Source: Psammoneis japonica
Taxonomy: Eukaryota
Direction: 5' to 3'
DNA length: 53,858 bases
Assembly: GCA_008632985.1 (NCBI GenBank)
Contig: QPGO01000274.1
Location: 1 to 53,858 of the forward strand
The position numbers and the translations under genes were made by a program. Numbering within the stretch: position 1 is the stretch's first letter; every line of letters starts with the position of its first letter. The notes under the pieces are model-generated. The model searched no databases. It was not told the DNA's origin and saw only the letters and a list, made by a program, of their open reading frames with translations. This document shows, piece after piece, positions 16,123 to 39,249 of this stretch.

Positions 16123-17301
16123 ATGGAGGATGGCAAAGCGCTGCATGGCCTCAGCACATTGGCTCGAGCAGTGGGGCTGTCTGAGGAGGCTTTGATGGAG
16201 CGCAAACAAATTTTCCCAATCTTGAGTGAAGATCGTTGGGCGAGAATGAGAGAATCACCACCTGAAACAGGCTTGCTGCACCGACTGACTACACTGGACT
16301 TGTCATCCTGCCGGCATCTTGAGCAATTGCCGCCACAGATTGGACGGTTGACCGGCCTCAAAGTGTTGCGCCTTGTTTGTTGCACGAGTCTTGTTGATTT
16401 ACCTGATGAGATTGGACAGTTGCGGAGCTTGGCGGAGTTGCATTTGTGTGGGTGCACAGAGCTAAAACGACTGCCGCATGGAGTTTTGCACCTTACAAAC
16501 CTGGGGGAGCTGGAGATCAAACACTGCACAGAAGTCACTGAGTTGCCAGATGAACTCTTCTGACTGCCAAATTTGAAATGCTTGCAGTTGGAACATTGTG
16601 ATTCCCTCACTGCGTTGCCAGCGAGAGTTTCCCAGCTGACAAGTCTCGAATCGTTGCACGTGTCACTTTGTGGCAAAATGTCAGAAATTCCTGTTGAGAT
16701 TGGCCACCTCTCCAACTTGCAAACGCTTGAGCTGCGCGGATGCAGAGGCTTGAATGATTTCCTTCAAAATGGCACAAGCGGCATGGTGAACCTGACTGGA
16801 CTGGATTTGAGTGACAATGCTGACATCATTGAGTTGCCTGTTGCAATCGGGTCACTTGAATCTTTGAAAGAGTTGTGTTTGATGGGTCGCACGCAATTGA
16901 CTCGCACTCCAAAAGAGGTTCTGGGGCTTCCAAATCTCACAGATCTTAATTTGTGGGCATGTCGTGAGCTGAAGACAACACCGGAAGAAATTGGAGAGGC
17001 TTCGCATTCTTTGAAGCACATGGAAATGCCGACCGAGGAGACTCAAGCGAAGATGGATTGCTTTTGTCAAATGAACAAGGCTGGACGTCACTTGTTGCGT
17101 TGCAAAAGAGGCGCACCCGCTGCCATTTGGCCAAATGTGTTGGCGGGTCCTTCCAGTGATGAAAACTTTGTTTTTTGGTTCTTGACGCACAAACCTCACT
17201 TTGTCCAGAAGCACCAGGGAAAAAGAGGAACCAAGAGAGCTGTCGAGGAGCAGGACAGCACAGTGCGGCAGGACGTTCGTCAACAGATTGCTCAGCCATG
17301 A
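16123..17301 (+). pseudogene. Leucine-rich-repeat protein LRR-B, copy 1 (premature TGA at 16561)
   Basis: LRR repeats plus the same C-terminal domain as LRR-A. TGA here corresponds to CGA at 23982 in copy 2. Confidence 0.92.
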
Positions 17302-17326
17302 AGCTCAGACTGCGCAGCAAAGATTG

Positions 17327-17547
17327 TCGTCCTCAATGTCTGCCATTGGGACGACACAAACCTGGCAGAGCTCCGTTCTTGTCTCTGCTCTAGAGTGCCC
17401 TTTCCTTTCAAATTCATCTGGTTGAAAATGCTGCAGTCATCCTCAATGTCTGCCATTGGGATGACACAAACCTGGCAGAGCTCCGTTCTTGTCTCTGCTC
17501 TAGAGTGCCCTTTCCTTTCAAATTTATCTGGTTGAAAATGCTGTAGT
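17327..17547. repeat. Tandem duplication, period 110 bp (also at 24748-24968)
   Basis: cctcaatgtctgccattggga...ggttgaaaatgctg at 17331 and 17441. Confidence 0.95.
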
Positions 17548-17763
17548 TGGCTTGACACTCGCAGCAGGCCCCTCTGCCTCGTCAGCCAGCCAGCGGGTGG
17601 CAGAGAGTGCCATGCTGCACTGTAGAGCTAGCTTAGAGCAGGCAGCAGTCTCTTAAGGGCAGTGGGGAGCACAGTGCTGCACTGTCCCCTGCCATGAATC
17701 TAAAGATGCTCGCGATGGATCCGTTGCAGTGGTGTCCCAATTAAACACATTAAAGCATTTTTT

Positions 17764-19190
17764 CTAATGGGAGTCTTTCGACAGTCTTTCGAGACGGTCA
17801 ATGATGCCTTTTCCAGGAGAAAATTCCTGGCCGACCATCGCTTGAACCTTTTGGACCAGCGCCCTTTCCGCAGCAACAGAGAAAGTCCCACATTTAAAGG
17901 TGAGCTCTTTGTGGCATTCGCAGGAGCAACCCCTGCAGCCGCTGCACATTGCACAGTGACAGTCCTCGCACTTTTTCATGCATCCAACTTCCTTTCTTGC
18001 TGTGAAATGACCTGTGTGATTGATGGAGCTGATTTCACAAATCACAAAATCATCCATCTGTTTGAAGACCTTGTGCAAGCCTTCGGCACAACAGGTTGTG
18101 CCAATGTTAAAATCCTTGCTCAACAACTTGTTGCACCCGTTGCACTGCACGCACACATTCGACAACTCCTTGCTGCAAATCTTGCAAGAGCAATCGTCGC
18201 CGCATGGGTCGATCCTCAGAGTGGCCGAGTCTGGCAGCTCAGCAATGGTCACAGCATCAGGCAGCTCTGGCAGCTCTGCAATCGATGCAGCATTGGCACC
18301 CTTCTTCTTCCTCTTCCTCTTGTTTGTCTTTGCCATCTCCTCAAGTTTGGCACGTTCCTCCGCTAGAGAATCATGCTGCTCCTTTGACCCCTTTGCTGTC
18401 TCCTTGAACTCAACATGTTCTTCCACAATGTGGCTGAGCAAAGGAAGGATTCCCTTCAGAATGGTGTCAGTGGAGGGAAAAGCATTTGCTTCCAATCCGC
18501 GTGACATGCCAGCAGTGGGCGGCAGCCAAGAGCCATCCACAACTGGCTCGCAGGTGCATCTCTGTGCCATCCTGAGAAGGCACAGCTCCGGAATGCCTGG
18601 GATCTTCTTGCCAGCTTTGAGACCAGCTGGATGTTCGTGATCAGCTTCAGCTTCATGTTTCAACTCTGTGTGCAACTCTGCACATTCGAGCATTGTCACC
18701 GTTTCACGGGTGATGCCTTTGATGGACACACCACGGTGCATCCAGTCCCAAGCCACTGAGACACAAACTTCCGTGGCAGTGACATCACCACCCATCTTGT
18801 TCACTGCTTTTTCACGGAGGTTGGCATGGCAGTCCGAATCATGCAGTTTTGATGGCGCCATCTTCCAAAAAGCATGCATCCTGCCCTTGTTGATGTGAAG
18901 GAACTGTCCAGGTTCCAGAGCAAAAACAGACGGACAGCACCTGTTGTGACCGTGCGAAACAAAACAGTGATGGGAAACGAAAGTCGGAGAATGTGCAAGA
19001 TTCAGACGACGCAACTTGCCCCAGTTGCTTCATCTCCTTGATTGTCTGACCAGTTGGCCAATTCAGGTTCTTGCGGTTCTCCTCATGAGGGAGGCCGTGC
19101 ACAGCGTCGCAGTCCTTGTCACTGCCGTTGAGAAGGTCCACAGCCTTTTTTTTTGAATTTTTCCGGCAGTCGTCGCAACATCACGACTTC
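17764..19190 (-). pseudogene. 5'-truncated duplicate of the JmjC gene
   Basis: Matches 25185-26610 but is cut at the duplication junction, so it lacks the HxD motif. Confidence 0.88.
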
Positions 19191-19897
19191 TTAAAAGCTG
19201 GCTTTTCATCCTTTGTCCGTGGCTGTTGTCCTTGTTTGTCTGGCAAATCAAACAAAAACATCATTGAGGGCGGAAAATGACTCCGATGCTTCACCTTTGT
19301 CGACAGGGACGCATTTGCTTGCTGGAGCCCATGACCCTGCCGGTGGCTCTTTTGGGGATGGAAGCTCTTCAGGAAACAAGGAGGGCTGGGGTGATGAGGC
19401 GCCCATGGCAAACAGAAAAGACAGATGCTGCTGACAGTGCCGCTGCTGCTGCTGATTGTGTGCCGACAGCAGAAGACAAAGCAGAAGGCAGAGAGACACC
19501 ACGCGCCAGAAGTTCACACTGCGCGCATGCAGACCCTGCCTGCACAGGCTGTTCAAAAAAGTCACCTCTGTTGTGCTGTCATGGCTTGTCCCAACCAGGT
19601 CAGAAAGGAGCACATTCATGGAAGCCAAACACCAAGAAGCCTTCAAGCCTTCAAGCAGACAGCAGACAGTGCTGCAGACCCTGCTGGCATGAAATGCAGG
19701 ACTGGGCGGCGAGGAGCTAGAGAGAGTGGAGAGCAGGGAGGGTCTCACAATCTCACAAGTTCTGTGTTAATTTGTTTTCACTCAGGAGCTTTTAATCATC
19801 ACAAATGCAGCCTCCAAATTGTGACCATGACACTAAAAACAATTTGCAGAACTGCATTGAAGAATGGGACGACGTCCCCAGAGATGAGCTGGGGACA

Positions 19898-22800
19898 TTA
19901 AGATGCACACTCCTCCAACTTTCTCTTGGTCCCTCTTTCTTGTGCAGGTTCTTTGTTTTGAACCAAATGGGGCTTGTTTGTCAAGAGCCAAAAAACAAAG
20001 CTCGCGTTGCTGTGGCGACCCGCCAACACACGCGGCCACAGCGAATCGGGCCTTTTGTCTTTGCTGAGCCGCAACAAGTGACGTCCAGCCTTGTTCATTC
20101 GGCAAAAGCAATCCATCACCCGTTGAGTCTCCCCAATCGGCATTGTGACGCGTTTCAAAGAGTGTGAGGCTTCTCCAATTTCTTCAGGTGTGATTTCCAG
20201 CTGAGGGTTTCCCCGCAAATTAAGTTTTTCAAGATTGGGCAGCGCCAAAACCTCTCGCGGAATTCCAGTCAATTGTGTGCAATTAGAGAGATCCAATGAT
20301 TTCAATCTTTTGAGCAACCCCATCGCAGGAGGCAACTCAACAAGGCCATTGCAACAGGCCAAGCCCAGTGACTCAAGACCCGCAAGCTGGGAAACGCTCT
20401 CTGGCAACTCAGTGAGGGATCGACACCCTGTCAAACTGAGCCTTTTCAAACTTGAAAGTTGGAAGAGCTCATCTGGCAACTCAGCAAGTTCTGTGCACCC
20501 CTCGACAACCAACTCTTCAAGTTTTGCAAGTCATCCAATCTCTCAAGGCAAGGTGACAAGACGCAGAGAACCATCTTTGGAAGCAACCGTCAACTCTTTT
20601 AGGTTGGTCAACTGTCCAATCTCTGGAGGCAATCGCTCAAGACGATGGCAGTGGATCAGCGTCAATGTCTTGAGGTTTGCAAGTTGTCCAACTTCACCGG
20701 GCATGGCAACAAGACTCTCAGCATTGAAGATGGTCAACTCAATCAAGCTTCTCAATCCTCCAATCTCAGCAGGCAAGGCCACAAGACTCTCACTCCCAGA
20801 AATCCTCAACTTGGTCAAGCTTCTCAACTGTCCAATCTCAGCAGGCAAGGTGATGAGACTGATGCTTTCAACAACCAGCACTTTGAGGTCAGACAGCTGT
20901 CCAATCTCTGGAGGCAACTGCACGAGAATCTCGCAACCCCACAATTTGAGCGTCTCAAGGTTTGCAAGTTGTCCAATCTCAGCAGGCAAGGTGACGAGAC
21001 TCCAGCTTTCAACAACCAGCTCTTTGAGATTAGACAGCTGTCCAATCTCTGGAGGCAACTGCATGAAACCGTGGCAACCCTCCAATTCGATCGTCTCAAG
21101 GTTTGCAAGCTGTCCAATCTCAGCAGGCAAGGTGACGAGACTAAAACTTGCAACAAACAGCACTTTGAGGTTAGACAGCTGTCCAATCTCTGGAGGCAAT
21201 TGCACAAGACTCTTGCAATGCCTCAATTTGAGCATCTCAAGGTTTGCAAGCTGTCCAATCTCAGCAGGCAAGGACAGAAGACGCTCATTTGTGGAAACTT
21301 CTAAGGTTGTCAAGCTTCTCAACTGTCCAGTCTCTGGAGGCAACTGCTCAAGACGCGAACATCTTCGAAGGTGCAGTGCTTTGAGATTGGACAGCTCTCC
21401 GATCTCTTGAGGCAACTGCTCAAGATGCAAACTTTCAACAAACAGCAGACGCGTTCCAGCCCCAGGTGGGACTCCGTGTGACATTGGGCCCGTAGAATTC
21501 TGCGTGCGAGCTCCGTAGTGCGAGAATTTAATTGATGAATGTGTTTGTCTTCAACATCAAATGAACGACCAAGTTTGTGGTGCAATTATGCCTCTCACCA
21601 CTCGACGTTTTTGCAATTGCACCTGCCCTGCGCGATTCTTAAGACAGCATAGAATCGCGCTGTGACAAAAAATGTCAAAAGTTTTTGGACGGATCGCTCA
21701 ATGAGTGCACCGTAAAATGACACAAAATGTCAAAAAATCACGTAGAATTCTACGTGCGCGACATGCGACAAGATTCAAAAAACTGTCGATGTCACAGTTC
21801 AGCAGCACGAGGTCCCACCCAGACCTGGAACGCGTCAGCACTTTGAGATTAGACAGCTGCCCAATCTCTTGAGGCAACTGCATGAAACCGTGACAACCCT
21901 CCAATTTGATGGTCTCAAGGTTTGCAAGTTGTCCAATCTCAGCAGGCAAGGTGACGAGACTCCAACTTTCAACAACCAGCTCTTTGAGGTTAGACAGCTG
22001 TCCAATCTCTGGAGGCAACTTGCCAAGATTGTCGCAACCCTCCAATTTGATCGTCTCAAGGTTTGCAAGTTGCTCAACTTCACCAGGCAAGGCCTGGAGC
22101 CAATGGCCACGGAAAACTTCTAAGGTCGTCAAGCTTCTCAACTGTCCAATCTCTGGAGGCAACTGCTCAAGACGCAAACATGCTCGAAGGTGCAGCACTT
22201 TGAGATTGGACAGCCGTCCAATCTCTGGAGGCAATTGCTGAAGACGGATGCAGTTGAGCAGCGTCAACGTCTCAAGGTTTGCAAGTTGTCCAATCTCAGC
22301 AGGCAAGGTGACGAGACTCCAACTTTCAACAACCAGCTCTTTGAGGTTAGACAGCTGTCCAATCTCTGGAGGCAACTTGCCAAGATTGTCGCAACCCTCC
22401 AATTTGATCGTCTCAAGGTTTGCAAGTTGCCCAACTTCACCAGGCAAGGCCTGGAGCCAATGGCCACGGAAAACTTCTAAGGTCGTCAAGCTTCTCAACT
22501 GTCCAATCTCTGGAGGCAACTGCTCAAGACGCGAACATGCTCGAAGGTGCAGCACTTTGAGATTGGACAGCCGTCCAATCTCTGGAGGCAATTGCTGAAG
22601 ATGGATGCAGTTGAGCAGCGTCAACGTCTCAAGGTTTGCAAGTTGTCCAACCTCAGCAGGCAAGGTGACGAGACTCAAACTTTCAACAACCAGCTCTTTG
22701 AGATTAGACAGCTGTCCAATCTCTGGAGGCAACTGCTCGAGACAGAGCAATTTGAGTGTGACCAGCCAGTGCATCATGACAATTTCAGATGGCAATGTTC

Positions 22801-22960
22801 TCAAACAACCTGGAGGAATTGCCGTGCAGGAGGCGTTGACGAATCCTTCGCATCCTGGCTCAATTGTGACATGCTGGGAAGACGCCAACTGCTCCACAGA
22901 CTGTCCTGTGGCTCGAGCCAATGCAGCAAGGATTTGTGCAGACTGCTGTTTAGCGTCCAT
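19898..22960 (-). pseudogene. LRR-A, copy 2 (MITE insertion, in-frame TGA stops near 20531-20545)
   Basis: ORFs 21698..22981, 20543..21484 and 19898..20512 form one LRR frame once the MITE is removed and two TGAs are read through. Confidence 0.92.
21448..21836 (+). mobile_element. MITE family A, copy 3 (duplicate of copy 2)
   Basis: Same TIRs and AGCA TSD at the homologous site, so the insertion predates the 7.4-kb duplication. Confidence 0.95.
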
Positions 22961-23543
22961 CTCTTTGTTCTTCAGATGCAAGGATCCGACACAAAGCGAT
23001 GGACGTCAGGGTTGATGCGGATGACAGCGTGTTGGCAAATGGCGGTTGCTGCCATTGTGGTTGCAGAGGAGCGAGGAGTGGGGGAGGATGGATGTGTGCT
23101 GTGCCCCCTCACGCACATGTGCAAATTCATCTCCGAATGGCAGTTCACAGCGTGGGTGTGCCCCGGGGCCATGCCTGCACGACATGCATGCGCGACTGCA
23201 ACAGCACAGAAAGCACAGCAACTGTGCGTTGCGAGGTGTGTCCCCTCACATGTGCAAATTCATCTCTGCATGGCAGTTTGTGACGTGGCTCAGTGTGCCC
23301 CGGGGCCGTGCCCACACGACATGGCATGTGGGCACACGCGACTGCTGCTGCATGCGCAAATCCATCTCCAACTTGCACTGCTGCAACAAGCACTGCTGTG
23401 ACAAGCACTGCTGCAACAAGCACATCACATCATTTCACCGCCTTTTTGTTGTTCTGTTGACAAGGAGGGAGTTGCTTCGACCCTCATTTGGCTTTGCGCC
23501 TGCCTGTGTGGCACGTTCCAAAAGAAGAGCACCATCACGCACC

Positions 23544-24722
23544 ATGGAGGATGGCAAAGCGCTGCATGGCCTCAGCACATTGGCTCGAGCAGTGGGACTG
23601 TCTGAGGAGGCTTTGATGGAGCGCAAACAAATTTTCCCAATCTTGAGTGAAGATCGTTGGGCGAGAATGAGAGAATCACCACCTGAAACAGGCTTGCTGC
23701 ACCGACTGACTACACTGGACTTGTCATCCTGCCGGCATCTTGAGCGATTGCCGCCACAGATTGGACGGTTGACCGGCCTCAAAGTGTTGCGCCTTGTTTG
23801 TTGCACGAGTCTTGTTGATTTACCTGATGAGATTGGACAGTTGCGGAGCTTGGCGGAGTTGCATTTGTGTGGGTGCACAGAGCTAAAACGACTGCCGCAT
23901 GGAGTTTTGCACCTTACAAACCTGGGGGAGCTGGAGATCAAACACTGCACAGAAGTCACTGAGTTGCCAGATGAACTCTTCCGACTGCCAAATTTGAAAT
24001 GCTTGCAGTTGGAACATTGTGATTCCCTCACTGCGTTGCCAGCGAGAGTTTCCCAGCTGACAAGTCTCGAGTCGTTGCACGTGTCACTTTGTGGCAAAAT
24101 GTCAGAAATTCCTGTTGAGATTGGCCACCTCTCCAACTTGCAAACGCTTGAGCTGCGCGGATGCAGAGGCTTGAATGATTTCCTTCAAAATGGCACAAGC
24201 GGCATGGTGAACCTGACTGGACTGGATTTGAGTGACAATGCTGACATCATTGAGTTGCCTGTTGCAATCGGGTCACTTGAATCTTTGAAAGAGTTGTGTT
24301 TGATGGGTTGCACGCGATTGACTCGCACTCCAAAAGAGGTTCTGGGGCTTCCAAATCTCACAGATCTTAATTTGTGGGCATGTCGTGAGCTGAAGACAAC
24401 ACCGGAAGAAATTGGAGAGGCTTCGCATTCTTTGAAGCACATGGAAATGCCGACCGAGGAGACTCAAGCAAAGATGGATTGCTTTTGTCAAATGAACAAG
24501 GCTGGACGTCACTTGTTGTGTTGCAAAAGAGGCGCACCCGCTGCCATTTGGCCAAATGTGTTGGCGGGTCCTTCCAGTGATGAAAACTTTGTTTTTTGGT
24601 TCTTGACGCACAAACCTCACTTTGTCCAGAAGCACCAGGGAAAAAGAGGAACCAAGAGAGCTGTCGAGGAGCAGGACAGCACAGTGCGGCAGGACGTTCG
24701 TCAACAGATTGCTCAGCCATGA
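23544..24722 (+). CDS. LRR-B, copy 2; open frame of 392 aa with no Tyr, function doubtful
   Basis: Uninterrupted from MEDGKAL to QIAQP*. LRR repeats and MNKAGRHLL C-terminal domain. Confidence 0.75.
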   Translation: MEDGKALHGLSTLARAVGLSEEALMERKQIFPILSEDRWARMRESPPETGLLHRLTTLDLSSCRHLERLPPQIGRLTGLKVLRLVCCTSLVDLPDEIGQLRSLAELHLCGCTELKRLPHGVLHLTNLGELEIKHCTEVTELPDELFRLPNLKCLQLEHCDSLTALPARVSQLTSLESLHVSLCGKMSEIPVEIGHLSNLQTLELRGCRGLNDFLQNGTSGMVNLTGLDLSDNADIIELPVAIGSLESLKELCLMGCTRLTRTPKEVLGLPNLTDLNLWACRELKTTPEEIGEASHSLKHMEMPTEETQAKMDCFCQMNKAGRHLLCCKRGAPAAIWPNVLAGPSSDENFVFWFLTHKPHFVQKHQGKRGTKRAVEEQDSTVRQDVRQQIAQP

Positions 24723-25184
24723 AGCTCAGACTGCGCAGCAAAGATTGTCGTCCTCAATGTCTGCCATTGGGACGACACAAACCTGGCAGAGCTCCGTTCT
24801 TGTCTCTGCTCTAGAGTGCCCTTTCCTTTCAAATTCATCTGGTTGAAAATGCTGCAGTCATCCTCAATGTCTGCCATTAGGATGACACAAACCTGGCAGA
24901 GCTCCGTTCTTGTCTCTGCTCTAGAGTGCCCTTTCCTTTCAAATTTATCTGGTTGAAAATGCTGCAGTTGGCTTGACACTCGCAGCAGGCCCCTCTGCCT
25001 CGTCAGCCAGCCAGCGGGTGGCAGAGAGTGCCATGCTGCACTGTAGAGCTAGCTTAGAGCAGGCAGCAGTCTCTTAAGGGCAGTGGGGAGCACAGTGCTG
25101 CACTGTCCCCTGCCATGAATCTAAAGATGCTCGCGATGGATCCGTTGCAGTGGTGTCCCAATTAAACACATTAAAGCATTTTTT

Positions 25185-28100
25185 CTAATGGGAGTCTTTC
25201 GACAGTCTTTCGAGACGGTCAATGATGCCTTTTCCAGGAGAAAATTCCTGGCCGACCATCGCTTGAACCTTTTGGACCAGCGCCCTTTCCGCAGCAACAG
25301 AGAAAGTCCCACATTTAAAGGTGAGCTCTTTGTGGCATTCGCAGGAGCAACCCCTGCAGCCGCTGCACATTGCACAGTGACAGTCCTCGCACTTTTTCAT
25401 GCATCCAACTTCCTTTCTTGCTGTGAAATGACCTGTGTGATTGATGGAGCTGATTTCACAAATCACAAAATCATCCATCTGTTTGAAGACCTTGTGCAAG
25501 CCTTCGGCACAACAGGTTGTGCAAATGTTAAAATCCTTGCTCAACAACTTGTTGCACCCGTTGCACTGCACGCACACATTCGACAACTCCTTGCTGCAAA
25601 TCTTGCAAGAGTGGTCGTCACCGCATGGGTCGATCCTCAGAGTGGCCGAGTCTGGCAGCTCAGCAATGGTCACAGCATCAGGCAGCTCTGGCAGCTCTGC
25701 AATCGATGCAGCATTGGCACCCTTCTTCTTCCTCTTCCTCTTGTTTGTCTTTGCCATCTCCTCAAGTTTGGCACATTCCTCCGCTAGAGAATCATGCTGC
25801 TCCTTTGACCCCTTTGCTGTCTCCTTGAACTCAACATGTTCTTCCACAATGTGGCTGAGCAAAGGAAGGATTCCCTTCAGAATGGTGTCAGTGGAGGGAA
25901 AAGCATTTGCTTCCAATCTGTGTGACATGCCAGCAGTGGGCGGTCGCCAAGAGCCATCCACAACTGGCTCGCAGGTGCATCTCTGTGCCGTCCTGAGAAG
26001 GCACAGCTCCGGAACACCTGGGATCTTCTCGCCAGCTTTGAGACTGGCTGGATGTTCGTGATCAGCTTCAGCTTCGCGTTTCAACTCTGTGTGCAACTCT
26101 GCACATTCGAGCATTGTCACCGTTTCACGGGTGATGCCTTTGATGGACACACCACGGTGCATCCAGTCCCAAGCCACTGAGACACAAACTTCCGTGGCAG
26201 TGACATCACCACCCATCTTGTTCACTGCTTTTTCACGGAGGTTGGCATGGCAGTCCGAATCATGCAGTTTTGATGGCGCCATCTTCCAAAAAGCATGCAT
26301 CCTGCCCTTGTTGATGTGAAGGAACTGTCCAGGTTCCAGAGCAAAAACAGACGGACAGCACCTGTTGTGACCGTGCGAAACAAAACAGTGATGGGAAACG
26401 AAAGTCGGAGAATGTGCAAGATTCAGACGACGCAACTTGCCCCAGTTGCTTCAACTCCTTGATTGTCTGACTAGTTGGCCAATTCAGGTTCTTGCGGTTC
26501 TCCTCATGAGGGAGGCCGTGCACAGCGTCGTAGTCCTTGTCACTGCCGTTGAGAAGGTCCACAGCCTTTTTTTTGAATTTTTCCGGCAGTCGTCGCAACA
26601 TCACGACTTCATTGTAACCTGCGATGCAAAGGTGTCCCGAGTCTACGGTGCCATGGCCGTCTTGGTGAAACCCAGTGAAAGATGGTGGTGTGGTGACGCA
26701 CAAATTGGGGCCCATGAAAGGACGCGCTTCAGGATTGATCTGCACACTCGTTGAAAGCAAGGAGGAAACCGGTGCATGAGATGCAAGCACTTTGTCTAGC
26801 GGGATGCAATTTGTGGCACTGCAACACTTGCCGCGATCATCAGGCAGTGCTTTCCTCCCGGAAAGAATTCCATGAGCTTCAAAGAGGATGTCAAGTCCTC
26901 GCACAACTCCAGCAGCACCTTCTTGACATTGACATCATGCATGTGCAAGACCGTCTTCATTGGATCAATTTTTTGCTTCTTGTTTGTTGCGTCAACAAAC
27001 TCGAACTCATTGCTCCCAGATGTGCCATTCATCCCACCGAGACGCTCATTGAGACAACGGATGCAATCTGCAATCGTCATGGAAACAAGCTCAGGATGTT
27101 CCTCACATTCCACCGAATCCTTTTTTGCTGTGTGTGTTTTAATCTCAAAGTGGCAATGATCCGACGTTTGATGCGCCACACATTGGGGATGCCACACTCA
27201 TGGCCTCAGGTGACCAGCAAAACCTTGGGTTACAACTGAAATGTCGTCACGTTCCATCATGTGCAAGAGAAACCTCTCGTCCTCCCCGCGAATCACAGGA
27301 TCATCCATCTTGTCCATGCGGAAGTTGCCAAGGAGAACCCGGGAGTCTTCATCCCAAGTCCAAATGCAAAGACCCGTGTTGGGTAAATTTGGGACATCTG
27401 GAGGATCAGGCATCCGGCTGCCTGGCAACTCATCATCCTTTGGCAGCTCGAGCTCTTCTGGGCTTGCTTTTTTCCGTTTCGCACCTCCTTTTTTGTTGTT
27501 GGAGTTTCGGTTCATGAGGCCGTGCGTGCATCCACGGTTGTTGATGGCGTTCTTCATGTGACTTTTAAATGCCCTCTCCCCGATGCACAGTATGAAACAG
27601 AAAGCATCCTGACAAATTTTGACTTTGGTTCCTGGCAGCACAAAATCATGCGTGGGACCCAAAACGGAAAAGAGAGGCATTCCGGCTTGGGGAGGCATTG
27701 GCAGTGCGGGTTGTGCGGCTTGCTTTGTCAACTTGACCATCTCGTCATGCTTGTCTTTTCCTGTCTTCGGAATGCATCCAACAAGGAAGCCGGCACAAGC
27801 TTTTGCATTTTCCATTCCCTCAGAAGGATCAAATGCTTTTTTGAGGCAGCAGCATGACGAACTGGATTCTTTGTCATTCCTCCCTTCGGCCCACCTCTTG
27901 CATGCATCAAAACCGGCATCCTTTGTCAGAAACTGGCACAAACTGTCGGCGGCAGCATCGATGGCTTGCGGAGTTGCGCTTTTCTTCTTCTTCAAAGTTT
28001 CCTTCAATTTCTCAAAAACCAAGCTGCGCTTCTTCACCTCGTTCAACTTCTTCACCTCTCTCGGCTCGCCAACATCACTGGCAGCGTTGGCGACCTCCGC

Positions 28101-28256
28101 GGTGCTCTCATCCGGCATGGTCATCTCATTCTCATTGGACTCATCACTCGTCAGTGTCCTCCGTCCAGTTGCCACGTTTGGGGTGTGATGAGGCGCGACC
28201 TCCATCATGGTCACTGCCTCACCCAACTCATCACTCATCGGTGTCCCACCCATCAT
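25185..28256 (-). pseudogene. JmjC-domain protein with Cys-rich N- and C-terminal zinc-binding regions
   Basis: PFMGPNL.VT..SFTGFHQDGHGTVDSGH (HxD), LEPGQFLHINKGRMHAF (distal H), VSVAWDW, C-terminal CxxC clusters. Introns at 26740-26831 and 26362-26440 join exons in frame. In-frame TGA at 27198-27200. Confidence 0.82.
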
Positions 28257-28301
28257 GCAATCGACTCGTCTTTGGGATTTTGTTTGTGCTGGTGCAGCAG
28301 C

Positions 28302-28528
28302 AAAAGTTGAAATGACGGATGCCGAAAAGTCAAACATCTGGTCCATGACGTCGTTGTTGAAGTGCACAAGGAAATGCCGTGTCATTTTTTGGGCCTTGCA
28401 ACGCAGTGCTGCTTCCACACAAAAGTTAAAATGACGCACGCCGAAAAGTTAAACATCTGGTCTATGACGTCATTGTTGAAGTGCACGAGGAAATGCCGTG
28501 TTGCATTTTTGGGCCGTGCAACTCAGCT
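28302..28528. repeat. Diverged ~120-bp tandem duplication upstream of JmjC
   Basis: aaaagttRaaatgacg...gccgaaaagtYaaacatctggtcYatgacgtc...aggaaatgccgtgt occurs twice. Confidence 0.85.
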
Positions 28529-28830
28529 GCCGGCAGTGGGTGTCACACATGCATCACATCTGGTTGCATGGGGGGCTGGACTGCCGGCAGTGGGGCACAT
28601 GATGCATCATGAGCACATCACATCTAACTGCATGGGGGGCTGGACTGGGGCCTGCCGGCAGTGGGGCACATGATGTGTCACACACGCATTGTGTCTGATT
28701 GCATGGGGGGCTGGACTGGGGCCCACCGGCAGTGGGGCACATGATGTGTCACACGTTCATCATGTCTAATTGCGTGGGGGGCCAGACTGGGGCCTGCCGG
28801 CAGCGGGGCACATGATGTGTCACACATGCA
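28527..28830. repeat. Degenerate ~70-bp minisatellite
   Basis: Recurring gcatggggggctggactgggg..ccggcagtggggcacatgatgtgtcacac. Confidence 0.8.
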
Positions 28831-28922
28831 TCACAGGTGTGTCGAGGATCTCATGGGCCATCATGACAGATCAATCACCTCAGGCTGCTCACAATCGCCA
28901 ATGCATTTGTTTTGCTTGCGCA

Positions 28923-29270
28923 TCAAGAATCTCCTCCCGGTCCAACGAACCAGGTCTTGCACAGAGGCCGGCACCTCATCCACACACTTGCAGGTGCAGA
29001 ACTCCACTGCTTCCACTGTGGCTTTGCCATGTGAACAATGCAGCTTGTCTTGTCCCGCATTCGTGACGCGTTTCTCAATCTTGATGACAACTTTCCCCTT
29101 GTCACACCTGATGCATTCGAAAACAGATCTGGCGCCAGTGTCAGTGGCTCGTTTGCAGACAATCCCTTCCCTTTTTGGAATGCCCAGAATCGTTTGGAGA
29201 ATTCTGAACGACTCGAAAACTCCTCGCCCACCACAGGGCTCCAGTCTGCAGACAATTCCTCACTGTCCAT
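28923..29270 (-). pseudogene. Possible gene fragment with a weak MuDR/FAR1-like N-terminal motif
   Basis: VGEEFSSRSEF resembles the GxxFxSxxE motif; no transposase catalytic core seen. Confidence 0.2.
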
Positions 29271-30840
29271 CTTTCTTGTCCTGTCAAGAAGTTGTTGTGC
29301 AGCAGACTTGATGCACCAGACTTCCCAAGCACAGCAATGACGTCATGCGACAGTCAAAAGTGTATGAAAAAAAGTTGAAAATGTGGGTCATCACGTCATT
29401 GACGTCCGGAGGCCGAGATTCAAGACGATCTGGATTCCCGATTCCTGTTCCCACAGAGCATTTCGGCACAGTTTCTACATGCAGGTAAGACTGTGCACCC
29501 ATCGCACAAATTACCACCTGTTGACCTGTTGATCGACGTGGCACCAATCATTCATTTTTCTGCATGCATTGACATGTGAACAACACCAGAACAAGAGCCT
29601 CCACCGGCACATGTGCCATTCAAGTAGAAGGGTGCATGCCACAAGGAAGGGGAGAATCCACCAATGGAGGGACAACACCTGTTGTTTGCTGCTGGCACAC
29701 ATTGACCCATTCATGGTGGCGGCGCGATGGATGCAGCACACCATTGCTTTTCCCTTGCAGCTCGATTGTCTCATGCAGATGACCAGAACAACGGTTTAAT
29801 CAACGTTCATTGCCTTTTTCAACTCCAATGACTGCGACCGATTTGCCAGAACTTAAATGGAAAACTGTTTTCCATTTAAGTTTTGGGCAAATCGGTCATC
29901 GAATGACCTCATCACGCGGTCTTTTGTCCGCACAAACCATGACTGTAGTTCGCTGCTTACATTGAACAACTTTCACTGCTTCAATTGTGGATGCAGTCCT
30001 GACTCGCATGCACACCAGACGACATTCCATCCAATGGCTCGCTCGCTCATCAGCCATTTAGCTCAGCAGCCTCTTCTGTCTCCTGGTTCCAGCACATCCA
30101 AGCACTTGCTTGTTGCTCTTCACAAACAAGAAAAAAAGCCAACACCTTGCTGCTGGCAGTTTCCCAAACCACCACCAACAATGGCAGCAAAACAGTCCTT
30201 CACCAACAAGGATTTGTTGTCTTTGTGGGAGCAAGGCGAGGATTGCATCAAACTTTTGAAGAAATCGGCCGGCCAAATCGAACCCATGCTGGAGATTCTG
30301 AGAGATGATTCTCCCTTGGGAAAGGCAAGAAGAGCTGTGCTGATTGGAGCAGAGTGGACAACCGAAACTCCACATGTGACGTTTGAAGACTTCTGGACAT
30401 GCCGGTTTTTATTTGAAGAGGGGTGGACTGTGCCTGAATGTGCCAAAGGAGACACTGCCATGGTGACACCCAACATTCAGCATGTGCCATGTGAGGATGC
30501 AGAAACTCGAGCCACAAGTGCCATGAAGGTTCTGCTTAAAATCCATGGGGAAAGCACTGGAGGAAGAGGGGAATCCAACGCATTGGCTCTGGCGGGAATC
30601 CGAAAAAGAAAGCAGTCTGACAGAGGGCCAAACAAGAAAGGGAATGTGCCCTGGGCCTGCACTTTTGACGAATTCCACCAGCGTTTCAAAATTGCCATGA
30701 CAGCAAGGGACACAAGACGCGCTTCGGCACGTCGGGGAAGATCCAGTGGCCAAGGGCTCTCCATAAAAGATTGTCAAGCCTGGGCTGAGGTTGCCAAAAA
30801 AGGAGGTGCTGTGGGAGGCAAGGTTGACACCAGCAAGAGC

Positions 30841-31105
30841 ACCAAGAGGGCCAAACAGAAGGACCATGGCAAAGGTGGCAGGACTTCTTCGCCAGGGGGA
30901 GCTTCAGCCTCAAAAGTGATTGCCGCCCAATCAAATGGAGTGGCGGCGGACAACGAGATCACCAAGCAATCTCAGGACGCCAGCAACATCGCCAAGAGGA
31001 CGGAACAGGAGGACCATGGCAAAGGTGGCAGGACTTCTTTGCCAGGGGGAGCTTCAGCCTCAAAATTGATTGCCGCCCAATCAAATGGAGTGGCGGCGGA
31101 CAACG
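30841..31105 (+). repeat. 150-bp coding tandem repeat (DHGKGGRTS.PGGASASK.IAAQSNGVAADN x2)
   Basis: Direct repeat visible in both DNA and protein. Confidence 0.9.
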
Positions 31106-32413
31106 TGACCACCATCCAATCCAATGAAGAAGCAGCAGCAGACAAGGAACCTTGTTCGCCAGCAGTGATGTCAAGTCGGTGGACAAGGAACAAACTGGTG
31201 CCAGTGATGATGACAAATCCGTTGCTGCAAGTGGGTGTGCTTGCCCAAGCCATGATTGCATCATGAAGGTTTTGAACACAGATGGCTTTGAGAGTCACAT
31301 GAAGGAAGTGCTTGACGGAAGAACAATTGACAAATGCTGTCTTCAGGAAGGAACTGCCAGCCAGAAAGCGTGTGTTCTGGATGTTCTGGAACGGCATCGT
31401 AGGACAATGAGTGCTGCTGGCAAAGAAGACGCTGCTTGTGAAGAAGCGGGATCTGCCAGCTCCAAATTCAGTTTTGAACGGGCAATGCATTCAAAAAGCA
31501 ACCAAGACGGAGATGCCGCCCGGCAGCTTGTGGATGCCATGGTCTTGTGAGCAAGGAAGTGGAAATCCATTTGACCCACATGCTTGGCGGCACTTGCCGA
31601 TGGAAAGGTGCGAAGGCTGCAGCTCCTCCAGGCGGTCTGTCTCCTGACCAAGGAAGACTGCGGGGACGACGAAGTTTGCCTGTTCTTTGGCGATCCCACA
31701 GAACCAAGATGGGCCGTCAGGGGCGTTCATGATCAAAATCCTGTCTGCAATTTCTTGTTCTTAATGAATGATTTCCTGAAATCTCAAATTTGTGACTTCA
31801 TTGATTCCCGATGTGGTCCATCTCATCATCTGGTCAAGAGACATGAAGACAACGCAATTTTGGTTAGCATCGGAGACACCTGCGACTGGCATTACGATGG
31901 GCAGGTTGCCTTGCATGACAAAGAAAGTCCAGACATGCCATCTTCCTCAAGTGACATCATTGTCAACACTTGGTCACTGGGAACAAATCCTGACACCCCG
32001 TTTGATGCAGTCAATGGCATCAATGGATCCTTGGAGGTGGGAGAGCGAATGGATGAATCAGGTCACAAGCGCAGCAACAAACTGAACATGTGGGGTTTGT
32101 TGGCATCTGTGCAGGGTGTTGGCAGCCAACAACGGCAACATGGCCACCGGGGCAAGGTTTCTGGATCCTTCCTCAACAAAGGTTGGGTGAGGGGTGCTCT
32201 AAGTGGACGGGCATTGCTGGTGGGCAAGGCCAAATGCACAGGCATCTTCAAAGCTGTGCTGGGAGACATTGTGTCCAAGAACATTCTCAAAGTGATGAAG
32301 GATGCCGACAACCAGTTTTCCTTGCGTGAGTTCGACTTCTCAGCAAGTTCAGCACAAGGTCTTCTTAACGGGGAGTCGTGGGGAGCTTGGCCATGTTGGT
32401 GTGGAGAAATCCA

Positions 32414-32804
32414 TCCACGCATTCCAGGTCTAGGTGGGACCTCGTACACTGAACTGTGACATCGACAGTTTTTTGAATCGCCTCGTATGTCGCGCACGTA
32501 CATTTCTACGTGATTTTGGCGAAATTTTGCATGATTTTACAGTGCAATTGTCAGGCTGTCCATTGAACAACTTTTGATGTTTTTTTCTTCTACGCCATTC
32601 TCGAGTGTCTTAAGAATGGCGTGGGGGCAGGCGTGTCATCCAAAACTGCGAGTGCCAACATGGACAGATGCACTGCAAACTTGGCCGTTTTTTTTGTGTC
32701 GAAGACAAACACATCCATCAACCAGAGCACGAACTGCAGAGCTCGCACGTAGAATTCTACGGGGCAAATGTCACAAAAAGTCCCACCCAGGACTGGAACC
32801 CGTC
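32414..32804 (-). mobile_element. MITE family A, copy 4 (reverse orientation, more diverged)
   Basis: Reverse complement of family A; TSD TCCA (32410-32413, 32805-32808). Excision gives in-frame GAA ATC CAG TTG. Confidence 0.88.
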
Positions 32805-35479
32805 TCCAGTTGAGCAGAGGCGGAGGCCGTCCACACCAAAACTTTCAGCTGCCAAAGATCAAGGAGGCTCGTCCAGTTTCAATTCAAAGACTTGCAAGGT
32901 CAATTGGCCCACCTGGAGAAGCTTGGTCCCACCTCACTGCGGCTGAATCTGTCAAATGGGCATTTGGACAAGGGTTGGCAGGGTTCCGTGTTCATTTTTC
33001 AGACAAAAGAAAGCTCCCCATGTTTGTTGGAGTCCCACACATTCAGGGGACATTGTTGCAAGAGGGTGAATCTCACCCTTTGGACCAGGTCCTTCCATTG
33101 CACAACATGAAGAACAAGAAGCAGCGAAAAAACACATGGAACTCCCCAATGTCAGCCATCTTCCAGCCCCAACCACACAAGAGTCCTCCTTCTAAAAGTT
33201 GCAGTGAAGATGCCACACATGGGTCTGGCGGCTCAGGCACAAGAGCTGGTTCAGACAAAATCAGCAGCCGGGATTCGGTCGATGCCTTCACACCCACATC
33301 GCAAGTCCTCAATTTACAAAACCAAGAAATGCTGGCAGCCAACGCATGAAAGGCTGCCATTTGCTTGTACAAACCTGAACCAGATCATGAGTCCTGTGTG
33401 AAATTTCTTGGTGTCTTTGTTTGTGGTGGAGTCAACCATGCGGAGCTGACTGAAGAGGAAAAAACAGATCTCAGGAACGTTTGTGAGGACACCAAATACA
33501 TCGTCTGTACAAGTTTTGCGGATGAAGTTGTTTTTAAGCTTAGCCTCAAGCGCATTCCCATTCCGCAAGGACTCCGGGCTGAGCACATGCATGTTGATGG
33601 GAGGGTTCCAGCACAGTCAGTTCTGAGCCGCACAGTTCCCAAAACAGAATTTGAAGAGGCGCGGTCACCTGGCAGCCAGCACCATGTCACAGGGCCATCC
33701 ATTGTGCAACAAACATTGGAAGAAACAAACTGGGCGGAGCACACTGCAGCATGGGATGGGCCTGTCCCAAGACTTTGGGGCATGCACACAAAAGATGATG
33801 ATGGGTTGTCTGATGCGGACAATGTGTCAGATGTGGCAAAGAAACCAAATGAAGTGGCAAAAGTGACAATCAATGACACCGTCCAGCATGTGCCACTTGC
33901 CGCAGTTGCAGCCAAGGCAAGGATGGCTGGCCACGGAACAAATGAGAGTGATGGGGCGCCCAGAGTTTTGGGACCTGAATTTGCAACATTGGGAGCTGCG
34001 CTGCGTGTTTGCCCCACAGGACACCCTGTGCGAATGAAGAATGTCACTCCAAACCGGTTTAAAAGGGCAAACATGGCTGAACGCGAGGGCGCCAGTTTGA
34101 AAACTCTCCGAGAAGAGCATGATGTGGTGTGGGCAAAGAAAAACCCAGAGAAAGTCGCAGACTTGCTGCGTTCTGCTGTCGCAAATCAATTGATTGCCAA
34201 CCCAAAGACTTGGGAAGATTTTGCTGTTAAGATTGGCAAAGAAGATCATCCATGCAAAGCGGAGCCCCTTGATGAAAGCTTTTGGGCGATGATGAAGCTC
34301 AGTCCCGACCAGATGGAAAAGATGTGTGACTTTCTCAGGACCGAGCTGGGTGAGCGGAACCTGAAGGTGTCATCATTTTTCTCGGGTCAGTGCAAAACAG
34401 ACACAACCGATCTCAATCAAGTTCAAAGGATTTTGAAGGAACTCCATGGCAAGCTGGTCGTTCTTGTTAAAAAAGTGTTGTTTCAAACTGAAGAGGACAA
34501 AATGCGGGCTGAAGTTCAATCGGGTTTAGCTCAATCACTCAGGAGCATCACTGGCACTGGAAATGCAGATTCCAAGACAGACAAAATGTTGTTCCTAGCG
34601 GCTGGTGCACTCCAAGACTTTGAGATTGTTTGCAAGCATGTGTTTGGGACCCCAAACAAACGGAGCCAGGTTTGTGGAACAGGCAGTCGGCAGGCAATGG
34701 ATTGGGTGTCCTTGTCTCTGCCAAAAACCCCAAATGGAGACAAACCGTCCTACTCTGAGATGCTGTTGCTGATGTTGGAGGGGCTTGAGACAGAGGCATG
34801 GCGTTCCCAGATTCTCCGAAATGCCATGGATTTGATTGTTGTGGACGGCAAGCTGGTTGACAGGGAGACAGGGGAGCCATTGAGTGCGACAGACGCCGAG
34901 CAAATTTGTTGTGATGTTTGCTGCAGGCTCATGTCATGGACTTTTTCCAGCCGCAACAGTCAATTTCCAAAAGGGTGGAACAGGTGTTCTCATCCCGTTT
35001 TGTCTTTAACCGAATGTCTCCCTGCATCCGAAACTGACAGGCAGTTGGCAGTGAAAAAGGTGCAGGAGTTTCTTGACATGGATGACAGGAAGCCACCAAG
35101 TGACCCCTTCCTGATTCAAACTGAAGTGGACCACTCAGATGCGTTCGACTCAGACGATGACGTCAAACGCAATGCAAGAAATGAAAGGGAGAGGCAAAAT
35201 GAAACCCTGTCTGAAGAAGAGTCTGAGCCAGAATCTGAGCCAGAATCTGAACCAGAGGCTGTGCCCAATGGCAAAAAAAGAACATCGAGAATGAAGCAAA
35301 CAACCAAGAGACCACAAAAAAGCTGCAAGAGAACATCCTAAAGAGGCAACACACAGTTTCCGCCAAGAGACAACGGCGGCAAGAAGCTGCAGCCGCACCA
35401 CATGAAGAGCTTAGACAGAGCGCAAGATTGAGCAATGCCACCCACAGAACTCATTCCCATGACTCTGATGATTCCTCCT

Positions 35480-36180
35480 GCGACAGTCATGTTTTGAAAA
35501 AAATGCAGATTGCACCAGTTTGAGCATGACACTGCAGCAATGCGGCAGGAGCTGATGCAGCCCAGTCTGAATGCTGTTGTGTGCATCATGCATGGCATCA
35601 CAAGACACCATGCACTTGCAATGTGTCCCCAAAACTTTGCATCATGCATGTGCAGCGGGAGGAGCTGATGCGATGTGTCATGCACAGCATGTCATGCATC
35701 TGTCATGTCACATTTGCACGCGCCAGGAGCTGATGCTGACTGCACCTTCTCTCCACAGAACTTCTTCCTGGCAGAGAGGGTGTTGAAGGTGGCATCATCA
35801 CCAAAAAATAAAACCACATGTGGCAATGCGGCGGGAACTGACACCAGCTGGTTGGCATCGTGTGGTTTGCATCACATGACATCATGTCATGTGATGTCCC
35901 AAAAACTTTGCTTGTGCCACTTGAGGAGCTGATGTGTCATGCACAGCATGTTGCATGTCTGTCATGTCACATTTGCAAGCGCAAGGAGCTGATGCGGCAG
36001 GAGCTGATGCCAGCATGTTGGCATGGTGTTGTTTGCATCAGATGACATCATGCATCCATCATGTCACAGAAAATTTGCATCAAGCACATGCCACGTGAGG
36101 AGTTGATGTGTCATGCATGTGTCAAAGGCCTGTCACATCATGCATGCATGCACAAGCAGGAGCTGATGCTGCAACTGCAC
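35480..36180. repeat. Degenerate TG/CA-rich repeat region
   Basis: Many ggagctgatg units; the block tgtgtcatgcacagcatgt...ctgtcatgtcacatttgca occurs at about 35674 and 35933. Confidence 0.75.
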
Positions 36181-36923
36181 CCACTGCAGAACTTGTTCAT
36201 TCTTGCGAAAGTGCGCGATGCTTTCAGCCTTTGATTTGTCTGGTGGACAAGCCTTGAGTGCTTCTTTAAGTTCGTTTCGGTTCGGTCGGCCTTCATTGGC
36301 AGCCTCAAGAAAGTCCTCTCCTCCAAGTTTCTCCAAGTGTTCCCACATGGTTGAAATGTTTTTAAAATCTTTGTCTCTCTTGGTTTCACTGTGAAACTCA
36401 ACATGTTCACCCCACGCTTCTTCCACAACTTCTTCAGAGTGCACACTAAAAGGATCCTCCTCAACCTTCTCCGACTGTTGATCACTCTCCTCCTCCACCT
36501 CTTCCTCCTGATGCTTCTCTGGCTTCCCAGACTTGGGCGTGTTTGAATCCTCGAGCTTCTTGTTGTCCGTTTCCTGGTGCTTCTCCGGCTCTTGATCACT
36601 CTCCTCGTCGCTGGTGTTTTGAAAAGGACGGTTCGGATCCCAAGAGGATCCTTCCAAGGAACACAGTGCTTGCATTTAGTGCCATGATTCTGGCAGCAAG
36701 TGCAGAGGGTTGTGGCTTTGTCGATGGCATGTTTAATCCCATGGTTCTTGGCACAAGGGGTGCAAATAAATTTGGTCGGAAACTCCTCGTCCAAGGTGGG
36801 CATTGCCAGGTTTGTTGTCCCACCACCCAGGGAAGCAGCATGGCAACGGGCTGCTCCCTCATCCATGGCAGTTTGGATGGCTTCGTTTAATTCGCGCCTC
36901 TCCCTCTTTGCTTGTTCGGACAT
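36133..36923 (-). pseudogene. Hypothetical protein with CxxC motifs and an acidic linker, frameshifted
   Basis: MSEQAKRE...CTPCAKNH...CTCCQNHGTKC, then a frame change to the acidic ORF 36133..36675. Confidence 0.4.
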
Positions 36924-37507
36924 GGCAAACCCTTGCAGATCGCAACACAAACTCGGATTGTTGGTTGTGTGCCCTGTTGTTTGTGTTTGTTGACAACAAC
37001 ATGCAACACGGCGATCCTACGAGAAAGTGCACGTAGCCCCCCCTGCTGTTTGTTTTCTGTGCGCGTGCTGCGTGATCGAAGCAAAATGATGAAGAAAAAA
37101 AGTTGAAAAGTTGATTCATGACGCACGATGGGCAATTGGCGAAATTTTTTTGATTGGCTGAGAGGTGTTTCCCCGCATCATGAACACACATGATTGTGAA
37201 AGGTGTTGATTTGGCTGCCCCCCACGCACGCGCCCCATCCAACTGTCATGCACAGAGTGCCTCTACAGCAATGTGCAGCACTGGAGAGCAGCAGGGCCCT
37301 GCTCTGCGCAGCAGTGCTGCAGTGGCTAGCTGCTTCTAGAGCAGAGACTGGCAGCAGAGACTGCTCTTCTCTGCTAGAGCAGCTGCTGGTAGAGAGAGCA
37401 GAGCTGGCTGCTCCAGCTGCCACATCAGCATCAGACCCAAGACCCACCATGAGACAAAGCAAACGAGTGCATCGATCGATCCACCACACGCTCTGAGCCT
37501 GTGCACC

Positions 37508-39168: not shown

Positions 39169-39249
39169 ATTGTCACCATCACCATCATGCAAGCAGAGCC
39201 ATCACAGTCATGCATGGGAGCACATCATCCCTGCATCATGCATGCACCA

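What the first reader, a model, noticed from the sequence alone, without database searches (positions are those of the whole stretch)
26362..26831. Both JmjC introns have GCAAGT donors, apparently mutated from GTAAGT
Seen: minus-strand introns 26740-26831 and 26362-26440 both start GCAAGT and end CAG, and splicing joins the frames (CLMIA|INPEARPF; QLG|CCPSVF). TA-free GTGAG donors elsewhere (5743, 43138, 48043) are intact. Known: natural GC-AG introns are rare. Inference: this polarises the change as TA>CA and shows that it can damage splice sites.
Basis: partly seen in the sequence, partly recalled or inferred. Interest (0 to 1): 0.7.

Follow-up and report, generated by a model that had tools for sequence, protein, structure and literature searches.

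The report
TA-erasing mutation rewrote two splice donors
Two intron start signals in a broken copy of a diatom-type chromatin gene read GC where intact relatives read GT, because a targeted process that rewrites TA to CA or TG across repeat-rich DNA hit them; this process has so far been described in one unrelated alga.

Summary
Observation confirmed. Both introns (26831-26740, 26440-26362, minus) read GCAAGT..CAG. At the same positions, 5 of 5 intact paralogues in this genome and 46 donors from environmental relatives read GT; none reads GC (one further call was a mis-match). An independently TA-depleted paralogue lineage also has GC at both. The change is therefore GT>GC, part of a TpA-specific A:T>G:C hypermutation. 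It marks 176 of 388 sampled 1-kb windows, hits both strands and outpaces CpG decay. It also has a sub-context, favouring the A of TA[C/T]: in 28 independent retrotransposon copies GTAAG became GCAAG 59 times and GTGAG 12 times, so two GC donors are the expected outcome. The GTGAG donors are not controls (no intact copy found, and GTAAG can become GTGAG). Loss of splicing is untested, and the copy is also broken by a stop and by tyrosine loss. The closest known case is TpA hypermutation in Bigelowiella natans (2026 preprint). A DNA adenine deaminase is my best guess for the enzyme (about 50%). The scan noted this process, and hit donors, on other pieces of this genome.

The parts
26740..26831 (-). 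Intron A, 92 nt, GCAAGT...CAG. The donor +2 base (26830) reads C where relatives have T.
   Evidence: GT in 5 of 5 intact paralogues; 23 GT and 0 GC among 38 distinct junctions from environmental loci (13 no intron, 2 unclear).
26362..26440 (-). Intron B, 79 nt, GCAAGT...CAG. The donor +2 base (26439) reads C where relatives have T.
   Evidence: GT in 5 of 5 intact paralogues; 23 GT and 0 GC among 42 distinct junctions (18 no intron, 1 regex mis-call). The homologous intron is skipped by an X2 contig.
26441..26739 (-). Middle exon, JmjC core with HQD intact; family-invariant Tyr of PNLY reads Cys
26832..28448 (-). Upstream coding frame (start not defined), interrupted by one in-frame TGA
   Evidence: aligns to the intact C290 frame
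27198..27200 (-). Premature TGA stop upstream of both introns; a CGA>TGA origin is possible but not shown
   Evidence: the intact paralogue reads through
25185..26361 (-). Last exon: rest of JmjC (MHAF) and a ZZ-like Cys-rich finger; invariant Tyr of MGYC and SNxY read Cys
18941..19019 (-). Intron B in the truncated tandem copy, same GCAAGT donor: the change predates the duplication and counts as one event
11778..26610 (.). Tandem duplication of about 7.4 kb (98.9% identical); 41 of 65 mismatches are CG vs TG/CA, 5 are TA vs CA/TG
1..53858 (.). TA-depleted domain (TA o/e 0.09, CG o/e 0.60, CA 1.57, TG 1.55), continuing to the end of the 79-kb contig

Best explanation
These are ordinary, conserved GT-AG introns of a diatom-type JmjC + ZZ-finger gene. 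This copy lies in a repeat-rich domain where a targeted process converts A:T to G:C pairs only at TpA. SHOWN: (1) direction GT>GC; (2) TpA specificity, both strands, each copy mutated independently in DNA; (3) a sub-context: written on the strand of the A, TA[C/T] is hit more often than TA[A/G], so at GTAAG the pair under the T is hit first, giving GCAAG about five times as often as GTGAG; (4) once one strand is changed the site is no longer TA and is left alone (TA>CG is very rare); (5) the same preference strips Tyr codons (TAY). INFERRED: the copy is a pseudogene; the process is steered to silenced, CG-methylated repeat chromatin and acts as genome defence; the chemistry is deamination of adenine to hypoxanthine in chromosomal DNA by a TadA/ADAT-like enzyme, fixed at replication (about 50%); GC donors lower or abolish splicing here (about 75%, untested).
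For: Donors. Spectrum: intact C290 to depleted C47, 84 TA became 41 CA, 32 TG, 2 kept, 9 other, 0 CG; T>C 75 of 170 at TA against 6-7% at other T; with outgroups 15 of 32, against 8 of 78 and 4 of 44 on intact branches. Independent hits: a 95.5% identical repeat pair has 60 sites reading CA in one copy and TG in the other, 41 single TA hits, and 364 CG kept against 40 lost. Context: GTAA became GCAA 133 and GTGA 38 times (169 kept, 341 observations, 14 sites, 28 copies); GTAAG 59:12; 26 of 28 copies and 12 of 14 sites lean to GC; 29:4 in 8 other pairs. Surviving TA are mostly YTAR, almost no RTAY. Still active after the tandem duplication: 5 of 52 TA sites differ against 4 of 533 TC sites. Gene decay: one stop, 2 Tyr in 1030 codons against about 25 expected, three invariant Tyr read Cys. 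TadA/ADAT2-like genes are present. Same TpA>TpG/CpA spectrum measured de novo in B. natans.
Against: No direct parent copy: the nearest intact paralogues are 69-73% identical, and two of them have GTACGT, so GTAAGT is inferred. The GC lean is not absolute: 2 of 14 sites reverse (1:3 and 4:13), one young pair gave 2:3, and 20:1 of the 29:4 came from one depleted region. The GC-donor excess in depleted DNA (16 of 795 against 6 of 1237 controls) vanished without this window (p 0.07-1 in 9 settings), and one of its hits (33900) lies antisense to a long frame and is probably false. No strand-coordinated runs in any pair tested, so nothing points to a processive single-strand enzyme. The deaminases found look like housekeeping types that most eukaryotes have. 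A TadA-7.10 RNA off-target motif reported as TAM (passage in PMC8845244) fits TAC but not the weak TAA seen here. Sequence alone cannot tell an A lesion from a T lesion.
Confidence: 0.85

Rival explanations
1. Same targeted process, but the lesion is on the T: a thymine oxidase marks [A/G]TA in repeats (5hmU, then 5-formyl-U), which mispairs with G and is fixed as T>C.
For: RTA with T changed and TAY with A changed are the same event, so fit equally. 5hmU is tied to transposon silencing in dinoflagellates (title and abstract start of PMC11572971 in the listing). Mispairing of 5-formyl-U with G is recalled, not from a call.
Against: No Tet_JBP match in the genome, but the search's controls did not ring either, so absence is not shown.
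Confidence: 0.25
2. No dedicated mutator: error-prone repair or replication in methylated heterochromatin happens to give A:T>G:C at TpA as a by-product of 5mC handling.
For: TA and CG depletion go together (r = 0.75 over 388 windows); diatom repeats carry CG methylation (passages of PMC9998398).
Against: TA loss runs ahead of CG loss in young copies (up to 135 of 165 TA against 20 of 191 CG); the strict TpA rule and near-saturation suit an enzyme with a motif.
Confidence: 0.2
3. The donors did mutate to GC but are still spliced, so the change did not damage the gene; the stop and Tyr losses did.
For: Both keep AAGT at +3 to +6. About 15-18% of human GT>GC donors give 1-84% normal transcript, more often with strong U1 pairing (abstract of 10.1101/479493).
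Against: Most GT>GC changes give no normal transcript in that study; the exon sides (GCG, GGG) are far from the CAG consensus (recalled). Diatom data are lacking.
Confidence: 0.2
4. Natural, functional GC-AG introns that arose in this paralogue lineage independently of TA loss.
For: No direct intact parent was found; the copy is divergent and lacks the middle intron of its paralogues.
Against: 0 GC among 5+5 paralogue donors and 46 environmental GT donors; the only other GC donors are in TA-depleted copies; the gene has lost nearly all TA.
Confidence: 0.03
5. Sequencing or assembly artefact, for example a modified base misread.
For: The only run holding the locus (X1) may be the source of the assembly.
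Against: X1 contigs carry the depleted copies letter for letter beside intact ones; sister copies share the same CA or TG choices while unrelated copies differ site by site, which is inheritance, not read noise.
Confidence: 0.02

Closest known systems
TpA-specific hypermutation of integrated NCLDV and virophage DNA in Bigelowiella natans (Mettrop et al., bioRxiv 10.64898/2026.01.13.699255; read: abstract through conclusion, parts 1-3 of 5, plus a word search; supplements closed)
   Same: A:T>G:C transitions only at TpA, giving TpG or CpA; regional; clusters of TpA-poor, CpA/TpG-rich DNA; transposon domains enriched; ADAT2 proposed, not shown.
   Different: Rhizarian alga there, diatom-type genome here. 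There two viral regions with TpA only mildly depleted (Rho 0.45); here near-saturation (o/e below 0.1 in 116 of 388 windows), with sharp borders, retrotransposons and host-type intron-bearing gene copies hit, and CG loss alongside. The main text has no hit for 'intron', 'diatom', 'trinucleotide', 'context' or 'CpG', so the TA[C/T] preference and the donor effect are not described there. There the rate was measured; here it is read from old copies.
Repeat-induced point mutation (RIP) of ascomycetes (RID/DIM-2); abstract starts in the listing, otherwise recalled
   Same: Repeat-rich DNA is rewritten at one dinucleotide on both strands until near saturation; gene copies caught in it decay.
   Different: RIP is C:G>T:A, mostly CpA>TpA: the opposite direction. 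It raises AT and creates stops; here GC stays near 50% and TAA, TAG and Tyr codons are removed. Homology pairing and sexual-cycle timing are untested here.
Natural GC-AG U2 introns and GT>GC donor variants (Lin et al., bioRxiv 10.1101/479493; abstract only)
   Same: GC at +1/+2 with a consensus AAGT tail and AG acceptor.
   Different: Here GC is confined to TA-depleted, decayed copies and absent from all intact homologues examined; no splicing evidence.
JmjC histone demethylases (KDM6/JMJD3, PHF2/8, KDM7)
   Same: A spliced homologue (P0045) scores 0.95 to a JmjC cluster and its model matches JMJD3 at E 3e-10; HxD...H kept.
   Different: No Pfam JmjC or PDB sequence hit; model is weak (mean pLDDT 50, TM 0.18); followed by a ZZ-like finger; substrate unknown.

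Membership tests
B. natans-type TpA hypermutation | A:T>G:C transitions restricted to TpA, giving CpA and TpG | tested here: met
   T>C 340 of 822 at TA against 3-9% at other T
B. natans-type TpA hypermutation | Regional, clustered TpA depletion with CpA/TpG gain | tested here: met
   Bimodal: 176 of 388 windows below 0.25, 192 above 0.4; sharp borders
B. natans-type TpA hypermutation | Targets of foreign or mobile origin | tested here: inconclusive
   A reverse-transcriptase element is hit, but so is this host-type gene with conserved introns; viral origin of the window was not tested
B. natans-type TpA hypermutation | De novo rate about 1000-fold raised, on in some lines only | not testable with these tools
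   Needs mutation-accumulation lines
B. natans-type TpA hypermutation | ADAT2-like candidate enzyme present | tested here: inconclusive
   TadA-like and ADAT2-like frames found (L167, L170); presence says nothing of activity on DNA
Fungal RIP | C:G>T:A at CpA, raising TpA | tested here: not met
   TpA is removed; C>T at CA is 2 of 101
Fungal RIP | Triggered by duplication itself | tested here: inconclusive
   Three 99% identical copies of the JmjC unit (C290, C81a, C81b) keep 319 and 239 shared TA, so duplication alone has not yet triggered it; they may be too young
Natural GC-AG introns | GC donor conserved in intact homologues | tested here: not met
Natural GC-AG introns | Spliced at the GC in RNA | not testable with these tools
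JmjC domain | Double-stranded beta-helix with HxD/E...H | tested here: met
   On homologue P0045; invariant H206, D208, H307, kept in the window copy
JmjC domain | Pfam PF02373 hit | tested here: not met
   0 of 4 window frames and 0 of 12 homologues

The most novel reading that the evidence does not exclude
Diatoms and chlorarachniophytes share a chromatin-guided DNA adenine deaminase defence, a natural adenine base editor. Its TA[C/T] preference is the sequence of Tyr codons on one strand and of GTA splice donors on the other, so it disables captured or duplicated genes without making stops. Because it turns GTAAG into GCAAG about five times in six, it would also be a mutational source of GC-AG introns.
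Probability: 0.3. Interest if true: 0.9.

Novelty: new variant of a known kind. Interest (0 to 1): 0.62.

Why it matters
The two donors are a clean, outgroup-checked record of direction for a mutation process that has rewritten a large share of this genome and runs opposite to RIP and CpG decay. Regional TpA hypermutation is in print for one rhizarian alga; my four searches listed no paper on it in diatoms, and the library lacks most subscription papers. The TA[C/T] preference gives a fingerprint for testing candidate enzymes and for comparing the two algae. A natural enzyme that edits adenine in chromosomal DNA would matter for genome defence and for base editing. In practice, gene finders will mis-model such regions: donors turn to GC, stops vanish and frames stay open.

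Tried and rejected
No RNA holder was listed for window 25100-28500; this is no evidence on expression. GTGAG donors as controls: no usable intact copy. Genome-sample intron scan: GT excess in normal DNA held (p below 0.01 in 7 of 9 settings; GC p at least 0.33 in all 9), but the GC excess in depleted DNA did not survive removal of this window. Candidate third GC donor at 33900: antisense to a 663-aa frame, no other copy, rejected; candidate at 8123 unresolved. Strand-coordinated tracts: runs tests not significant in 6 pairs, 4 series and 29 copies. Tet_JBP search uninformative. Pfam and PDB sequence searches gave no JmjC hit. Shared survival of the GYN tyrosine in two depleted lineages: TTAC and CTAC sites often survive, so not taken as selection. 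GC-biased gene conversion: not TpA-specific, and GC stays near 0.50. TA depletion in relatives: 0 of 80 environmental loci fell below TA o/e 0.35, but that search favours intact genes. A second repeat family was listed but not analysed. Rows dropped before counts: 1 of 29 copies sharing over 85% of outcomes; pairs under 80% identity, under 300 bp or with TA difference under 0.2; 20 intermediate and 2 N-rich windows; duplicate junctions among the 80 loci.

Full report
OBSERVATION. On the minus strand, 26831-26740 (92 nt) and 26440-26362 (79 nt) both begin GCAAGT and end CAG. Removing them joins three frames into 1030 codons with one internal TGA at 27200-27198, upstream of both introns. GCAAGT occurs 62 times in the window, so the motif alone proves nothing. 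The whole window is TA-depleted (o/e 0.09; CA 1.57, TG 1.55, CG 0.60), as is the rest of the 79-kb contig. A 7.4-kb tandem duplication holds a truncated second copy with the same GCAAGT at 19019, so that donor changed before the duplication and counts once.

THE GENE. Homologues include a Fragilariopsis cylindrus and a Bacillariaceae protein in one of six clusters looked up, so the family is diatom-type. Pfam gave no JmjC hit for 4 window frames or 12 homologues, only weak ZZ-finger hits, and a PDB sequence search found no JmjC protein. A spliced homologue scored 0.95 to a JmjC cluster, and its weak model (mean pLDDT 50) matched JMJD3/KDM6 at E 3e-10. 'JmjC' is therefore supported by fold and by the kept HxD...H residues, not by profile.

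ARE THEY INTRONS, AND WHAT WAS THE DONOR? The genome holds five paralogues in normal DNA (TA o/e 0.50-0.56) and two in depleted DNA (0.02-0.03). At intron A the five read GTACGT, GTAAGT and three times GTAAGT; at intron B GTACGT, GTACGT and three times GTAAGC. They form two subfamilies, so this is two independent witnesses per site. The two depleted copies, one lineage derived from the second subfamily, read GCAAGT and GCAAGC: an independent repeat of the same two changes. In 80 environmental loci, after collapsing duplicates, intron A gave 23 GT, 0 GC, 13 without intron and 2 unclear of 38 junctions; intron B gave 23 GT, 0 GC, 18 without intron and 1 regex mis-call of 42. GTAAGT was the commonest hexamer at both, 8 of 23 each. 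Laying runs on the intact C290 copy, one X2 contig skips exactly the 82-nt GT..AG intron homologous to B, and another joins the exon end of the other subfamily to the same acceptor position. X2 is labelled 'DNA?', so that it is RNA is my inference; the joint rests on one contig with 29 letters on the short side at 80% likeness. The second was tested only roughly: a frame-bridging scan showed GT but never GC donor excess in normal DNA (12 of 464 GT and 3 of 615 GC against 9 of 1278 controls; stable). The matching GC excess in depleted DNA depended on this window and is not claimed.

THE PROCESS. From intact C290 to depleted C47, 84 TA became 41 CA, 32 TG, 2 kept, 9 other and no CG; of 132 CG, 72 became TG or CA. 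With outgroups, T>C was 15 of 32 at TA and 2-5% at other T, against 8 of 78 and 4 of 44 on intact branches. Eight pairs gave 180 CA, 153 TG, 58 kept and 16 other of 407. In a 95.5% identical repeat pair, 60 sites read CA in one copy and TG in the other, which needs a TA ancestor hit separately on opposite strands; 364 CG were kept and 40 lost. In 29 copies of a reverse-transcriptase element, TA loss ran from 12 of 145 to 135 of 165 while CG loss stayed at about 4-20%. TA loss is thus not a by-product of CpG decay, though the two share domains (r 0.75). In 39 hand-placed 10-kb samples, 176 of 388 windows were depleted and 192 normal; the sample is not length-weighted. The process was active after the window's tandem duplication (5 of 52 TA sites differ, 4 of 533 TC). 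No strand-coordinated runs were found. X1 contigs hold both intact and depleted copies, including this window's, although X1 may be the assembly's source.

WHY BOTH WENT TO GC. Surviving TA are mostly YTAR; relative survival is 0.56 for TTAA and 0.009 for ATAT. Written on the strand of the A, TA[C/T] is hit more than TA[A/G]: 0.54 and 0.52 against 0.33 and 0.24; TTAC 133 of 341 against GTAA 38 of 341. In a GTAAG donor the favoured A is the one paired with the +2 T. In 28 independent copies GTAAG gave GCAAG 59 times and GTGAG 12; 26 of 28 copies and 12 of 14 GTAA sites lean that way. Two GC donors then have a probability near 0.7 once TA is lost, so the pair is the expected outcome. Against: two sites reverse, one young pair gave 2:3, some TA[C/T] contexts with a 5' G are low (0.20-0.22), and an earlier scan note reports GTG in one copy and GCA in another.

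DOES IT DAMAGE SPLICING? The sequence is changed; function is untested. In human genes about 15-18% of GT>GC donors still give normal transcript, more so with good U1 pairing (abstract of 10.1101/479493), and both donors keep AAGT. The copy is broken in other ways: the stop, 2 Tyr against about 25 expected (P 4e-9), and three family-invariant Tyr reading Cys. The order of these lesions is unknown.

MECHANISM. Shown: TpA-only, both strands, heritable, regional, near-saturating, TA[C/T]-leaning. Inferred: targeting to silenced, methylated repeat chromatin (diatom repeats carry CG methylation; passages of PMC9998398), and adenine deamination to hypoxanthine by a TadA/ADAT-like enzyme (about 50%). 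Candidates exist but look like housekeeping types (9 matches). A thymine-oxidation route gives the same pattern (25%); the Tet_JBP search was uninformative. Error-prone repair tied to methylation is third (20%). A TadA-7.10 RNA motif of TAM (passage in PMC8845244) fits only in part; a 'YAC' preference of base editors is recalled and was not confirmed in the two papers checked.

COMPARISON. It works like the TpA hypermutation measured in Bigelowiella natans (bioRxiv 10.64898/2026.01.13.699255; parts 1-3 of 5 read, supplements closed, where flanking-base data may lie). Spectrum and regional pattern are met; de novo rate and enzyme cannot be tested. It differs in lineage, depth, targets and accompanying CG loss; that main text does not mention introns, diatoms or wider context. 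It resembles RIP in effect but fails RIP's defining direction, and three near-identical copies of the JmjC unit remain almost unmutated. Four searches (listings only) showed no diatom report. The scan has noted the process and hit donors on other pieces of this genome; these notes are unchecked and were not used as support.

VERDICT. Observation confirmed; direction supported; controls and functional claim not shown. A local, well-polarised instance of a new variant of a recently described process, with a measured reason why donors go to GC. Interest 0.62.

Noticed in passing
L022-L025 (G000:C81) and L016-L017 (G000:C290): An 8-kb unit with the intact JmjC gene and 530-bp tandem repeats exists in three 99% identical copies; two sit as normal-TA islands inside depleted domains. 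Either very young insertions or a unit that escapes the mutator; a demethylase as anti-silencing cargo is a guess.
   Followed up: partly
window 26441-26520, minus: The window copy lacks the middle intron of all five intact paralogues, with a joined frame; in the two depleted paralogues that intron's donor region is deleted.
   Followed up: no
   Followed up: partly
window 6147-6537, 14027-14415, 21448-21836, 32417-32811: A 390-bp repeat related to the flank of the reverse-transcriptase element in L062 (801-1190), at different stages of TA loss; probably LTR-like, not tested.
   Followed up: partly
window 10959-12476 and G000:C275 beyond the window (L176-L177): Two further 94.5% copies of a 1.5-kb stretch lie near the contig end; 24 CG losses fall on the window copy and 9 TA losses on the other.
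   Followed up: no
L169:313-1785, minus: A deaminase-like domain fused in one frame to what looks like a 2-oxoglutarate/Fe dioxygenase (recalled motif, not scanned); probably purine metabolism, but it joins the two candidate chemistries.
   Followed up: no
L165, L166, L168, L171: Tandem dCMP-deaminase-like domains present on two contigs as near-identical copies.
   Followed up: no
window 8123-8228, plus: Possible further GC donor (GCAAGC...CAG, 106 nt) that joins two frames; no homologue checked.
   Followed up: partly
run X2 on L016:8321-9565: Contigs at depth 370-400 match a more distant paralogue not among the fetched loci.
   Followed up: no
window 52241-52891: Assembly gap of 651 N.
   Followed up: no
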